NCBI RefSeq assembly: GCF_006345805.1
Contig: NC_043009.1
Location: 6,820,001-6,884,000 of the forward strand
DNA length: 64,000 nucleotides
Source of the DNA: Octopus sinensis
Taxonomy: Eukaryota
Direction of reading: 5' to 3'
The translations under genes and the position numbers were made by a program. Below the pieces are notes generated by a model. The model saw only the letters and a program-made list of their open reading frames with translations. It did not search any database and was not told where the DNA came from. Of this stretch, positions 3,401-61,480 are shown piece by piece (position 1 is the stretch's first letter; every line of letters begins with the position of its first letter).

Positions 3401-4292
3401 TATATATATATGCTTATATGGCTACAGGACGTCTATGATTGTAAACAACATGAAATACGCAAACAACGAAAGAAAAATATTGAAAACATGACAAGTAACA
3501 CAAAGAACGAGCCTTCATGAGTTATCGACTGTCTAACTCCTCATTTGAGGAGTTCGACAGTCTAGCAAATCTCGAGAAACGTGCGATTCTCGTGTCTCGA
3601 GATGGGCTAGAGAGTTTCTATTTTGCATATATTTCGGGTACTTAGTTGTGCTCATGACTTAGTGTTCACTTCTTCCATGGGTATATGTAAGTATTTCACT
3701 TACTCCTTTGCCGCATTTATCACTGATAAAGGGAAGGTTCTTATGAACTAACTCTGAAATCGGGTCCGATATGGTAATAACGGGATTTTTAGAAATTTCT
3801 GTCGGCTTTATTCGAAACGCGTGCTTCTAGTGATAAATTACATAGTTATTGACGTTATGTCTATTTTCGTCATATTTTGGCATTAGAATTTTTTTCTTTT
3901 GCCCTTACTTATAAATTGTTTATAAATTACCTTTAAAGGTATATTTTTAATGTGCTTGCCATTGATAGATTTTTTCGAAAAAATTGGTATCCTACATTAG
4001 ATGTATTATACATATACATACATATATATATATATATAATATATTATATATATATTATATAATATATATGTGTGTGTATGTGTGTGTGTGTGTGTGTGTG
4101 TTTTGTGTGAGTGTATGTATATGCATATATATATTTATATATATACACATTATACCTATATATATATATATATATATATATATATATGTATATATATATA
4201 TATATATATTATATATACACATTTATACCTATATATATATATATATATATATATATATATATATATATATATATATATATATATATATATAA

Positions 4293-4428
4293 AGTTAATC
4301 CAAACAAGAAACACAAAAGACAACAACGCAAAGGATGTGGAACAAATAAAGTATTATTGAACGCTCAGGAAAGAAGGAAGAAGGAGGGTTTTGACGTTTC
4401 GAGCGGAGCTCTTCGTCGGAAACATAGG
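4293..4428 (-). mobile_element. Short (TA)n-embedded element end, Penelope-like terminal repeat fragment, carrying a minimal hammerhead motif
   Basis: Flanked by (TA)n on both sides; related copy in opposite orientation at 34817-34904; HHR motif at 4389-4424. Confidence 0.6.
4389..4424 (-). ncRNA. Minimal type I hammerhead ribozyme-like motif
   Basis: Minus strand reads GTTT CCGACGA A GAGC-TCC-GCTC GAAA CG TC AAAAC: CYGANGA core, 4-bp stem II, GAAA, palindromic ACGT stem III, GUC site. Confidence 0.55.
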
Positions 4429-4849
4429 ATATATATATATATGTATATAATATATATATATATATATATATATATATATATATATATATATATATATACA
4501 TAGTATGTATACGTGTGTATAAAACACACACTCGAACACAATCTATATGTATATGTATATATATATATATATATATAATATATATATATATATATATATA
4601 TATATATATATATATATATATATATGTGTGTGTGTGTGTGTGTGAGATTGTGTATTTCTTTATACGTGTGTAATAAAGTACAAAATTTTCTTGAAAACCT
4701 GAAGTTAAAAACACTGCGAGAAAATATTAATATATACAGGCGAGATTCTGTCCCCGAATATCAGCCAAATTATGCATTAGATTTTGCCTACTAATTTTGC
4801 AGACATTTGCAGTCTTATTTAGCCTGCTCGTTAAAAATAATATATAAGA

Positions 4850-5400
4850 ATGGTTTTTCTTCCATTTCCACGAATACCTTGGAACTCTTAAAGTTGAATC
4901 GTACCAATACTCTTCGTATTCGATTGCTATTAATAAGACTCTCATTCAGATTGGTCTGTGATAAACACTTTACAAAGCAAGATCTACCGCCAGGAACATA
5001 CACAAGAATGTAGCTTGAAAAGTGATAGTTATTCTAGAACAGAGATTCTCAACAATTTTCTATCAATGGAAATCTTTGATTACTATTTTATTCCTTTGGA
5101 CCCCATTGCTATTAAATGTTTAAAGGCTAGTTTCCAAATTGCTATCTTGCTTTTCACACAATAATTAGTGTATGAAGAACTACGTGAAACGTTAGAGAAA
5201 GAATCCTAGGTCGTTCTTGCAATCCATACCAAAACATCAACAACAGTTTTTTCTTTTATCAGGTGCCCTTACAATTCTATTGTGGATGGTGGATTCCCAA
5301 TTTATTATTCCATTGCGTGGAACCTCAAATTGTTTATGAACCAATAGATGTCATATGGACCCTGCGTGAGAAGCATTGTGCTACAATGGGAATCTATACA
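4850..5400 (+). mobile_element. Possible highly degraded Penelope-like element remnant (RT C-terminus / GIY-YIG)
   Basis: Frameshifted fragments (IYYSIA / CGTSN..TNR / IWTLREKHC) echo the GIY-YIG pattern IY.F.C.CG..YIG.T.R.L..R..EH; many stops. Confidence 0.3.
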
Positions 5401-5513
5401 GAAAAAAAAGGAAAAACGAAAAAGGAAATCACACGAATTCATCAATGAAGAAAGGAAACTTAACTACAAGCTGAAGATCGACTTCAGCTCCATCAATATG
5501 TACCATATGAATA

Positions 5514-5747
5514 CCTATTCTTTACTACCAACAAGGGGCTAAACACAGAGAGGACAAACAAGGATAGACAAACGGATTAAGTCGATTATATCGACCCCAG
5601 TGCGTAACTGGTACTTATTTAATCGACCCCGATAGGATGACAGGCAAAGTCAACCTCGGTGGAATTTGAAATCAGAACGTAACGACAGACGAAATACCGC
5701 CAAGCATTTCGCCCGGCGTGCTAACGTTTCTGCCAGCTCGCCGCCTT
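5514..5747 (-). mobile_element. SINE family A copy, tail type X
   Basis: Reverse complement closely matches 10887-11120. Confidence 0.9.
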
Positions 5748-57912: not shown

Positions 57913-57935
57913 TTACATATATATATATATATATA

Positions 57936-58372
57936 GGCGTGGAGTGGCTGTGTAGTAAGTAGCGTGTTTACCAACCACATGGTTCTGGGTTCAGTCCCAT
58001 TGCCTGACAACTTGGGCAAGTGTCTTCTACTATAGCCTCGGATCGACCAAAGCCTTGTGAGTGGATTTGATAGACGGAAACTGAAAGAAGCCCCTCGTAT
58101 ATATGCATATATATATGTATATGTGTGTGTGTGTATGTGTATGTGTGTGTGTGGGTGTGTGTTTGTGTGTCTGTATTTGTTCCCCCAACATCGCTTGACA
58201 ACCGATGCTGGTGTGTTTACGTCCCCGTAACTTAGCGGTTCAGCAAAAGCAACCGATAGAATAAGTACTACGCTTACAAAGAATAAGTCCTGGGGTCGAT
58301 TTGCTCGACTACAGGCAGTGCTCCAGCATGGCCCCAGTCAAATGACTGAAACAAGTAAAAGAGACTAAAGGG
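57936..58372 (+). mobile_element. SINE family B copy, full length
   Basis: Full family B body. Confidence 0.9.
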
Positions 58373-58959
58373 AGTATATATATATATATATATATATAGT
58401 TGAGGATGTATTTTATATAGTAAATTGATGGAATTTAAAGCCAAAGCAAGTTTAGTCGCTAATTCCCGCATTTGGAGGCACCAGATTTAATGGCAACGGT
58501 GTTCCTTTTCACTTCGTAATTTCCGACATGCTCGATCACTTTATAGTCACTTCATCTATAAATACGTTAGCCTAATAAAAGAAAAAAATGCCCTCATATG
58601 TCAGGAGCTTAAAATATGACACTTGCGACGAGATTCGAAACAGAAAACATTTATGTTGTAACTAATTTTTGTTGCCAAAATATTTTATGTAACAGCTTTC
58701 TCTCTGAAAAGCCGGGCCATTAGAATATAGGTAAACATATAAACCGAAACAGTTTTTTTTTTCTTGCACAGATGCAAGTGGTTCCATTAAAGTAAAGTTG
58801 TATGTTTCCAATTTGCATCTATTCATATGAAACGACATAAATACGTTAAATGGACGCCCTCCCTCCGCGTTCTCTATAGTTATGCTCGGATAGAAAAAGA
58901 AAGTATGCAGAATCACGCGCTCACACTCACAACCAGCATGTACACACACAATATATGCG

Positions 58960-59440
58960 CGTGCGTATGTATACCTATGTATGTGTGCGTGTATATATAC
59001 ATAAACACACACACACACATATATATATGTATATATATATATGTATATATAGATGGCATATATATATATTATACGAATCACACACACATATATCTATATA
59101 ATATGTATAGATTTATATATAAATATATGAATACATATATATATATATAATATATATAATATATATATATATATATAGTATATATATATAATATATATAT
59201 ATATATATATGTATTATATATACACACATATATATAATATATATTACATATATTATAATATATATATATATATATACGTATATATATATACATTATATAT
59301 ATACACATATTATTTTATACAGCATATATATATATATATATATATATATATATATATATTCAAAGATATTCATATATATGTATACATATATATGTATACA
59401 TATATATACATACACACCCACATATATGGATAGACATATA
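58960..59440. repeat. (TA)n-rich microsatellite region
   Basis: Direct reading. Confidence 0.9.
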
Positions 59441-61204
59441 TAAATATAAGCATGGGTGTGTATGCGTTGAAATATATATATATAGTAAAGAATGATATAA
59501 AATCTAATCCAATTTCACTCGCAGGTATACAGAGAAGCAAGCAGTGCACACTTATATACGTTTGCAATTCGCCATTCCATATTAGGTTACTGCTTAAATA
59601 TAGGCAGTAAATACAGAGTTGCCAATGTGTACGTTAATGCATATGTACGTGTGATCGTATCGCTGAATATTGTTGGGACATAAAAGCATTTACTTAAATG
59701 CAGAAAAAATATGTATGGAGAGCAATGTGTATGTGGGTATATATATATATATATATATATTATATATATACACACAGAAGACTAAGGGACTATTTGTATC
59801 TCAAATATAGACGCATGCACATATACTTGCATGCATATGTATGCGTCTATATGTACGTATATGTAGATGTACATATATATGTATATATACGTCTGTAAGT
59901 GAGTTTTTATTTATGAATATTGTGATATGTGTGGGTGTTGTCATTCGTATGCTGTGCATTTGTGTTTGCGTATGAAATATACAATGTGTATATATATATA
60001 TATTATATATATATATGTGTGTGTATGTATATATAATATATATGTATATATATATATATATATATATATTATATATATATATATATATAGATAATATATA
60101 TATATACTTCTGTGTGTGTATGCCTCTATATATAAACCGTGTATATGTGCGTTTATTTGATTCTTCGGAGATTTTAAATACGTTCAATATTTATGATAAA
60201 ATAATGATGTAATATCGAAGTCCTGAATATACTAACTTAATGCTAACAATCTTATTTATCGAACACATTAGGATTACATGCTTCACTTTAAGCGTTTACA
60301 TATATACGTGTGTATGTGTGTGTGTGTGTGTATGTTCATGCGTGCACACACATTATGTATATCTATATATATATATATATATCGATATAAGTTTGTATAC
60401 ATGTATATGTGTGTTTGCGTATGCGTTTCTAAGATATATATATAATACATATATATAATACCATAATACATATTATATTATATAATACATATATTTACAC
60501 CAGTTCACTTTTTACTTCGCAAACCATTTTTCGTTCGTTTTGTATGATTCCATTTTCGGTTTATTTGCAACTTTCTGCAGTAAAAGTTGTATTTGACTCT
60601 CAACGAATACTGTCATTGGGGTTGAAACCGTGTCACGAAGTAAACCGTGTATTTTGTTTGCAGAAACAGGAAATGCCCCACTGCTTGTGCTGTGTTTTTG
60701 CACGTGTTTCTTATGATAGCATTGTGATGTGCTTCGTTCTTTTTTTTTTTTTTTGTATTCTGATCAGATATTTTCAACGCAGTGAAACGTAGCATTTGTG
60801 GTATAATGTCTGAGATGTCTGTCGTTGGTGTTCATTACAACTCGGTGTCGTTTGGTGAGATTTCCCCGGACGCTATGCTATCACGCAGCAAATTTGGCTT
60901 ACAAGCAAAACCAAACACACGCTATATATATATATATATATATATATATACGTGTGTGTGTGTGTGTTTGTGTGTGTGTGTGTAGGGAGAATTGACAAAA
61001 AACACATGTGGTGCAGACAACAAACAGATGTATTAGTATAACGCTCGGGAAGTGAAAAAGTCTGCAATGTTTCGAGCCTACGCTCTTCCACAGAAAGGAA
61101 CACAGAAAGAGACAAGGAGAAAAAACAAAGAATGTGTAGTGGCTAGCGATCAATCTCTCTCTCTCTCTCTCTCTATATATATATATATATATATATATAT
61201 ATAT

Positions 61205-61480
61205 ATCGTGAAGTATATTTGCCATTTAAATATGACTAAGCCCTAAGGGTGGATGCTACTGTACCTTGTAGCCTCAGGAGGACAACTCCTCCAGCTGGCT
61301 ATTGACATACTTTCTGTGCTCTTGGCATACTTTCTGTGTCAATAGCCAGCTGGAGGAGGTTTCCTCCTGAGGCTACAAGCTACAGTAGCATCCACCCCTA
61401 GGGGTTAACCATATTTAAATGGTAAATATACTTCACGATGTGTTGCAGCTACTGTTTATAACTCGCTCAGAGATTTATTA
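61205..61480. mobile_element. (TA)n-embedded fold-back element (~103-bp inverted arms)
   Basis: 61205-61307 is complementary to 61337-61439 with about 8 mismatches; TA tracts on both sides. Confidence 0.75.

What the first reader, a model, noticed from the sequence alone, without database searches (positions are those of the whole stretch)
3527..61439. Recurring pattern: (TA)n-embedded fold-back elements that turn around at or near their hammerhead motif
Seen: at least four sequence-unrelated short elements sit in (TA)n tracts and are inverted-duplicated with the turning point in or next to an HHR motif: 41042-41773 (within stem II), 40901-41030 (at the CCGACGA core), 48009-48084 (just before GAAATACTGATC) and 57790-57912 (before a stem II and GAAACTCGGAGTT). 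Similar fold-backs without a clear HHR occur at 3527-3610, 57009-57180 and 61205-61439. Established: Penelope-like elements often have inverted 5' terminal repeats. Inference: reverse transcription stalls or self-primes at the ribozyme structure, so a (TA)n-targeting, HHR-bearing retroelement system repeatedly deposits DNA palindromes and dsRNA substrates.
Basis: partly seen in the sequence, partly recalled or inferred. Interest (0 to 1): 0.75.

Follow-up and report, generated by a model that had tools for sequence, protein, structure and literature searches.

The report
Penelope-type mini-insertions with inverted arms
Most of these TA-flanked DNA palindromes are real and are likely short, non-coding insertions of Penelope-like jumping genes, whose inverted arm is already known; only two of the seven demonstrably turn at a hammerhead ribozyme motif.

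Summary
Six of the seven listed fold-backs are real. 57790-57912 (D) is marginal, and 57009-57180 (F) is an inverted SINE-like fragment of another kind. Four (A 41042-42261, B 40835-41025, C 48012-48192, G 61207-61478) share one layout: (TA)n, two head-to-head arms of unequal reach, a 41-111-nt one-sided tail, (TA)n. That is the published insertion signature of Penelope-like elements (PLEs), and self-priming at the inverted junction was proposed in 2013. A belongs to a very high-copy, ~597-nt, hammerhead-bearing tandem family (9,770 contigs laid from 4 runs). A hammerhead at the turn is shown only for A (inside helix II) and B (at the core). C is a possible 3' half; D, E, F and G have none. 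Other hammerhead-like copies, including A's own downstream unit, are read through or end without inversion. No strand-change joint was listed in the contigs, so neither independent confirmation nor a breakpoint distribution was obtained. Two new leads: four of five turns lie 132-146 nt from the far TA-anchored end (post hoc), and one contig joins exactly at A's predicted cut site. Verdict: new members of a known kind; the hammerhead-turn bias is plausible but unproven here.

The parts
41042..41409 (-). A, inverted 5'-truncated arm (368 nt), 3' end in (TA)n 41026-41044; reaches 6 nt further 5' than the right arm
41413..42261 (+). A, direct part: 1.4 units of a ~597-nt tandem monomer (35% GC), 3' end in (TA)n; this end lies 107 nt inside the end of the left arm (tail)
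   Evidence: end-to-start joints in contigs
41968..42085 (+). Complete type I hammerhead motif: core CTGAAGA 41980-41986, G10.1-C11.1, long AT-rich helix II, GAAA 42061-42064, palindromic loop III, predicted cut after GTC 42072
   Evidence: cleavage not tested
41950..41969 (.). 20-nt palindrome (9-bp arms) overlapping a TATA-like run, directly 5' of helix I
40835..40972 (-). B, long arm (138 nt): starts at C3 of a variant core CCGACGA with helix II, GAAA, near-palindromic loop III, GTA; 3' end in (TA)n 40792-40834
40970..41025 (+). B, short inverted arm; shares CGG with the long arm (3-bp stem, 5-nt loop); ends in (TA)n, 66 nt short of the long arm
48012..48192 (+). C: 35-nt inverted arm, zero-loop turn at 48046/48047, 146-nt long arm, tail 111 nt, both ends in (TA)n; possible 3' half of a hammerhead after the turn (unconfirmed)
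61207..61478 (+). G: 101-nt arms, 29-nt loop holding a 13-nt direct duplication, tail 41 nt, both ends in (TA)n; no hammerhead found
3412..3562 (-). E: T-rich segment ending in a 12-nt TA tract, 17-bp hairpin centred 132 nt from that end; a second imperfect hairpin follows to ~3610; membership uncertain
57007..57262 (.). F: inverted duplication including a fragment of a common SINE-like repeat; no hammerhead; probably a different event
57790..57916 (.). D: degenerate, marginal inverted similarity; contains a GAAA-loop III-GTT half motif at 57867; turn not definable
4292..4428 (-). H (added here): 137-nt insertion between two (TA)n tracts with a minimal hammerhead (core 4419); 5' end 9 nt upstream of the core, no inversion
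60984..61155 (-). J (added here): microsatellite-flanked insertion with a degenerate minimal hammerhead (core 61093), continuing 62 nt upstream, no inversion

Best explanation
A, B, C and G are short non-coding head-to-head insertions in (TA)n, likely made in trans by Penelope-like retrotransposon proteins from hammerhead-bearing RNAs. Shown: unequal arms, two distinct 3' ends 41-111 nt apart, both in (TA)n, with a hammerhead motif in A and B. Inferred from published in vitro work on one PLE: the enzyme nicks both strands of AT-rich DNA and primes two cDNAs at two internal start sites on uncut RNA. Inferred here: one cDNA ends in the hammerhead region, about 140 nt from its start in the short families, most likely because the RNA begins near the hammerhead's 5' edge. 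Its free end pairs on 2-4 bases, extends, and joins the second cDNA. The ribozyme marks the region but is not an obligatory stop.
For: The layout matches Craig 2021 Fig. 2 text and Arkhipova 2013. Both-strand priming, two start sites and an uncut template are reported in vitro. A needs two RNA-templated strands: the left arm holds 6 nt absent from the right arm, and the right side runs 488 nt past the left arm's start. All three known or candidate hammerhead turns lie 5' of the predicted cut (A 63-69 nt, B 22 nt or more, C about 14 nt), so the template was uncut there (for A and B; C read). B's junction shares CGG, which would form a 3-bp cDNA hairpin. A is a high-copy tandem family: 5395, 2080, 1226 and 1069 contigs laid, with end-to-start joints and a loose (TA)n end at 41670, within 4 nt of the position equivalent to this copy's end. 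H ends 9 nt 5' of its core. Long arms B 138, C 146, G 142, E 132.
Against: No PLE reverse transcriptase or GIY-YIG hit in 136 of 172 complex ORFs scanned, so the mobiliser is inferred. No RNA start is shown. A turns 24 nt 3' of C3, not at the 5' edge. No strand-change joint among 9,770 laid contigs. 3-bp self-priming sites are common (117 of 566 positions), and DNA folding gave no stable hairpin at the A or C turns. The length clustering is post hoc, on invented nulls. A relaxed hammerhead scan gave 7 hits against 0-7 in 30 shuffles, 3 of which reached 7.
Confidence: 0.62

Rival explanations
1. Same elements, but the folded hammerhead itself stalls the PLE reverse transcriptase and so sets the turning point.
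For: A turns inside helix II (the hammerhead is 118 of 597 nt, about a 20% chance). B turns at the core. C turns just before a GAAA half motif. Core-to-3'-end distances (B 138, H 128, J 110) match the long-arm lengths.
Against: A's long strand crosses an intact hammerhead. J and the 28358-28561 copy run past the core. [quoted passage not shown] G and E turn at the same distance with no hammerhead visible.
Confidence: 0.22
2. Turn positions are ordinary random 5' truncations; they fall near the hammerhead only because it lies 110-140 nt from the 3' end and short copies dominate.
For: Only 2 hammerhead turns are shown. Lengths of the non-inverted copies spread widely (86, 137, 172, 204). A's arm is 368 nt.
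Against: Four of five long arms fall within 14 nt; p 0.001-0.007 under four invented length distributions, and 0.006-0.02 for 3 of 4 without E (post hoc).
Confidence: 0.2
3. The palindromes are fold-back chimeras of library preparation or assembly.
For: A's three copies differ at 10 columns, 8 of them one-base gaps that look like read errors. No raw reads were listed and no junction-spanning contig was shown.
Against: Arms stop at element ends with unrelated flanks and one-sided tails. B and G arms differ by 5 and 8 substitutions. The same layout recurs in four unrelated sequences and is a published PLE trait.
Confidence: 0.04
4. They are TA-targeting miniature inverted-repeat DNA transposons (Micron/MiM type; name recalled, from no call) or replication template-switch products.
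For: Short, non-coding, palindromic, in (TA)n. F and the 48987-49080 hairpin have no hammerhead and could be of this kind.
Against: Arms meet in the centre and are unequal at the outer ends. A is a partial tandem with a hammerhead, and its contigs join end to start.
Confidence: 0.06

Closest known systems
Insertion structure of endonuclease-bearing Penelope-like elements (Craig et al. 2021, PMC8557442; Arkhipova et al. 2013, PMC3846280)
   Same: Partial tandem, inverted 5'-truncated copy head-to-head, one-sided tail, (TA)n targets, palindromic junction read as self-priming.
   Different: No ORF here. Tails are 41-111 nt against the usual 30-40. The passages I read do not place the junction relative to the hammerhead.
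Metazoan non-LTR retrozymes (Cervera and de la Pena 2020, PMC7229834; bioRxiv 10.64898/2026.07.22.740005)
   Same: A is a non-coding, low-GC (35%), high-copy tandem unit with a type I hammerhead and palindromic loop III.
   Different: Monomer ~597 nt (150-450 in the 2020 paper, 51-972 in the preprint). Only 1.4 units with one complete hammerhead here. Helix II carries a ~60-nt AT-rich extension. The word 'inverted' does not occur in the 2020 main text.
Minimal hammerheads of PLEs (Cervera and de la Pena 2014, PMC4209133)
   Same: H has the extra base after position 9, G10.1-C11.1 and no loop III. That paper already notes pairs of hammerheads 100-700 bp apart on opposite strands.
   Different: B and H carry C at core position 4; B lacks the G10.1-C11.1 pair; activity untested.
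PAc Poseidon element in vitro (Frangieh et al. 2024, PMC11167929)
   Same: AT-rich target, both strands extended, two internal start sites that define the tail, uncut RNA as template; the start lies 85-92 nt 3' of the cut (B 100, H 102 here).
   Different: Autonomous vertebrate element; formation of the inverted arm was not reconstituted in the parts I read.

Membership tests
Penelope-like elements (EN+) | ORF with PLE reverse transcriptase and GIY-YIG endonuclease | tested here: not met
   Pfam on 136 of 172 complex ORFs of 60 aa or more: only a zf-RVT of an unrelated LINE remnant passed its cut-off. The elements are too short to code; at most non-autonomous derivatives.
Penelope-like elements (EN+) | Partial tandem forming pseudo-LTRs | tested here: met
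   A: 41413-41666 repeated at 42010-42261; not seen for B, C, G.
Penelope-like elements (EN+) | Inverted 5'-truncated copy at the 5' end, head-to-head | tested here: met
   A and B, oriented by their hammerheads; C and G by layout only.
Penelope-like elements (EN+) | Tail at one end only (30-40 bp in print) | tested here: met
   G 41, B 66, A 107, C 111 nt; three are longer than the published range.
Penelope-like elements (EN+) | Type I hammerhead near the 3' end | tested here: inconclusive
   Complete in A and H, 5' helix lost in B, half motif in C and D, none in E, F, G; no Rfam hit.
Penelope-like elements (EN+) | Microsatellite or AT-rich target; target-site duplication | tested here: inconclusive
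   Both ends of A, B, C, G abut (TA)n; a duplication cannot be read inside (TA)n.
Non-LTR retrozymes | Tandem non-coding repeat with a type I hammerhead in each unit (two complete units) | tested here: inconclusive
   A has 1.4 units and one complete motif; contigs join unit end to start in X1, X3, X7; no multimer seen.
Non-LTR retrozymes | GC below 45% | tested here: met
   35.3%, but the window itself is 34.5%, so this carries no weight.
Non-LTR retrozymes | Self-cleavage and circular RNA expression | not testable with these tools
   All 24 listed runs are kept as contigs. One contig joint at the predicted cut is a hint only.
MITE inserted in microsatellite | Symmetric terminal inverted repeats around an unrelated interior | tested here: not met
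   A, B, C, G turn centrally and have unequal outer ends.

The most novel reading that the evidence does not exclude
Across unrelated PLE-parasitic families the first cDNA has a fixed reach, ending in the hammerhead region about 140 nt from its start, and that end snaps back to build the inverted arm. The hammerhead region would thus set the junction, and cut RNA is occasionally used too (joint 41983 to 42073, exactly at the predicted cut). Genomic junctions would then map RNA ends and ribozyme folding in the germ line and explain how PLE inverted repeats arise.
Probability: 0.3. Interest if true: 0.6.

Novelty: new member of a known kind. Interest (0 to 1): 0.33.

Why it matters
How PLEs build tandem and inverted insertions, and what their hammerheads do, are stated open questions (PMC8557442, PMC11167929). 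A genome with several high-copy miniature families would supply many junctions to test whether the hammerhead region, the RNA start or plain truncation sets the turn. The layout itself is not new.

Tried and rejected
No whole genome is held, so no family consensus or genome-wide breakpoint count was possible. Rfam: no hammerhead hit; the miRNA-family hits on A only reflect the hairpin. Metagenome scan with a B motif: 3 hits, GC 56-69%, matching only the 22-23-nt motif, rejected as chance. Scans of genome contigs (A motif) and viral contigs (B motif): 0. Run search: no RNA holder listed, no raw reads. Contig lay on one A monomer: no strand-change joint listed; 252 loose ends and 29 short joints were not shown, and contigs break at repeats, so this is no evidence either way. 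The depth fall beyond ~41760 in X6 and X7 was not used, because contig depth cannot rank parts. Loose ends at 42031 in all four runs read as length variants of the AT-rich helix II loop, not inversions. Three variants in helix I (41976, 42076, 42078) all keep pairing, but by my hand count 7 of 12 transitions would (p about 0.16): not counted as support. One right-arm difference (41470) matches a family variant (42068), but polishing error cannot be excluded, so it was not used to argue two templates. F's 137-nt arm was dropped from the length clustering (A-rich polarity, SINE-derived), D for lack of a turn, and 48987-49080 for lack of a TA anchor. Reading G's loop as a hammerhead 3' half was rejected: position 15.2 cannot pair with 16.2 and the orientation is ambiguous. 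A paper search for hammerhead + retrotransposon + inversion + junction + reverse transcription + stall gave 1 irrelevant paper.
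Full report
Setting. The window is 34.5% GC, microsatellite-rich animal DNA with 95 (TA)n tracts of 12 nt or more. Its repeats resemble those of cephalopods; this is recalled and comes from no call. No whole genome is held, which limits everything below to one window plus one contig lay.

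Observation. A masked local fold-back scan gave 24 hits with score 12 or more, mostly TA-rich low-complexity; two shuffles gave one hit each. Self-inverted alignment against 200 shuffles each gave 0 of 200 for B, C, E, F, G and the 48987-49080 hairpin, and 1 of 200 for D. A is 97% over 738 columns. D is therefore marginal. F contains a fragment of a repeat with many copies in the window and is A-rich toward its end, whereas A, B, C, E and G are T-rich; I treat F as a different event.

Hammerheads. A strict scan found one complete type I motif in the window, at 41980-42072, folding with helix I and a long helix II. Rfam found none. A relaxed scan gave 7 hits against 0-7 in 30 shuffles, so motif hits alone mean little. 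Those at 40972 (B), 4419 (H) and 61093 (J) are also inside microsatellite-flanked insertions; H fits the minimal hammerhead described in PMC4209133. A's turn maps to 42004-42010, inside the helix II extension; B's long arm ends at C3. C has only a 3' half, a pattern present 178 times in the window. D has a half motif but no turn. E, F and G have none that I can defend. So 2 of the 4 named elements are shown.

Anatomy. B, C and G have the same plan with one long and one short arm. The two 3' ends differ by 107 (A), 66 (B), 111 (C) and 41 nt (G). In A the left arm has six 5' bases that the right arm lacks, and the right side runs far past the left arm's start, so neither half can be a simple copy of the other; two RNA-templated strands are needed (inference). 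B's arms share CGG; G's loop holds a 13-nt duplication; A's junction has 3 extra bases. Three-base self-pairing sites occur at 117 of 566 positions of A's cDNA, so microhomology is weak evidence.

Other copies. The run search listed 24 runs, all kept as contigs; 20 hold part of 40836-42261, in 11 studies. Laying four on one monomer (41560-42154) placed 5395, 2080, 1226 and 1069 contigs: a high-copy family. Joints from unit end to start appear in X1, X3 and X7, and one X6 contig runs into (TA)n at 41670. No strand-change joint was listed, and many rows were cut, so the fold-back is neither confirmed nor refuted there. The single long joint listed (X1, one contig, depth 51, no shared letters, letters between not known) links 41983 to 42073, the first base after the predicted cut. 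It is one case, and X1 may be the window's own source.

Is the turn tied to the hammerhead? For: A and B; H ends 9 nt 5' of its core without inversion; long arms of B, C, G and E are 138, 146, 142 and 132 nt, close to the core-to-end distances of B, H and J (138, 128, 110). Four of five within 14 nt has p 0.001-0.007 under four invented nulls; the pattern was noticed after the fact, and F, D and 48987-49080 were left out. Against: A's arm is 368 nt; A's long strand passes an intact hammerhead; J and a hammerhead-like copy at 28358-28561 run 62 and about 140 nt beyond the core; non-inverted lengths are 86, 137, 172 and 204. Turns in A, B and C lie 5' of the predicted cut, so cutting does not set them.

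Literature. PMC8557442 (passages): inverted 5'-truncated copy, 30-40-bp tail, (TA)n bias, non-autonomous PLEs. PMC3846280 (passages): palindromes at inverted junctions read as self-priming, an 18-bp palindrome and TATA box at a pLTR 5' end (A has a 20-nt palindrome at 41950-41969), and antisense small RNAs. PMC11167929 (parts 1-2 of 4): both strands nicked and extended, two internal start sites, uncut RNA as template, ribozyme mutants without effect on product size. PMC4209133 (parts 1-2 of 4): minimal hammerheads and opposite-strand pairs. PMC7229834 (passages) and bioRxiv 10.64898/2026.07.22.740005 (parts 1-2 of 5): retrozymes as non-autonomous PLE derivatives. PMC8969392 and PMC6765202 (passages) add nothing further. 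Six searches showed no paper placing PLE inversion points at the hammerhead. The library lacks most subscription papers (Arkhipova 2006 and Lunse 2016 were not read), and I opened no supplements, where family sequences for this animal group could lie.

Earlier scan notes (unchecked AI notes, other genomes) report PLE ends piling up 8-12 nt 5' of the core or at its outer edge, with no visible role of the cut site. They moved me toward the RNA-start reading. H fits it; B is at 0 nt and A at +24 nt. They are leads, not support.

Mechanism and verdict. Most likely, PLE proteins acting in trans prime two cDNAs in (TA)n; one ends in the hammerhead region, probably near the RNA start, folds back and joins the other. 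The layout is shown; the enzyme, the RNA start and the order of steps are inferred. The finding is a set of new miniature members of a known class, with a testable but unproven positional bias. Interest 0.33.

Noticed in passing
window 41983 and 42073 (run X1): One contig joins the hammerhead core directly to the first base after the predicted cut, with no shared letters; could record a template jump across a cut ribozyme.
   Followed up: no
window 4292-4428 (-), second copy 34818-34903 (+): 137-nt insertion between TA tracts with a minimal hammerhead (C at core position 4), ending 9 nt 5' of the core; the second copy (84% alike) stops 3' of the cut site.
   Followed up: partly
window 28358-28561 (-) and 26826-27000 (-): Two TA-anchored, T-rich segments share a hammerhead-like motif in which GAAA is replaced by GAAT followed by GACCCGTC; possible core variant, untested.
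   Followed up: no
window 60984-61155 (-): Microsatellite-flanked insertion with a minimal-hammerhead-like hairpin and an altered core (CTGTGGA).
   Followed up: partly
window 48987-49080: Unlisted fold-back (20-bp perfect arms, 18-nt loop, 0 of 200 shuffles), 227 nt or more from any TA tract.
   Followed up: partly
window 19363-20732 (-): Broken LINE remnant interrupted by (AAT)n: zf-RVT Pfam hit (E 1.7e-6) at 19363-19749 and an RT-like motif near 20409-20732 (motif recognised from recall).
   Followed up: partly
window 41990-42060: Helix II of A's hammerhead carries an unusually long AT-rich extension that varies in length among family contigs.
   Followed up: partly
window 7835-8328, 27871-28337, 49449-49898, 57273-57698, 57920-58395, 61937-62237 and others: Abundant ~480-nt SINE-like repeat; a second ~190-240-nt repeat occurs dispersed and as short tandems at 16602-17194 and 46525-47150.
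   Followed up: no
window 31263-31870 and 9080-9660: Partial tandem (~210-nt period) of a repeat also present at 9080-9660, resembling a pseudo-LTR layout.
   Followed up: no
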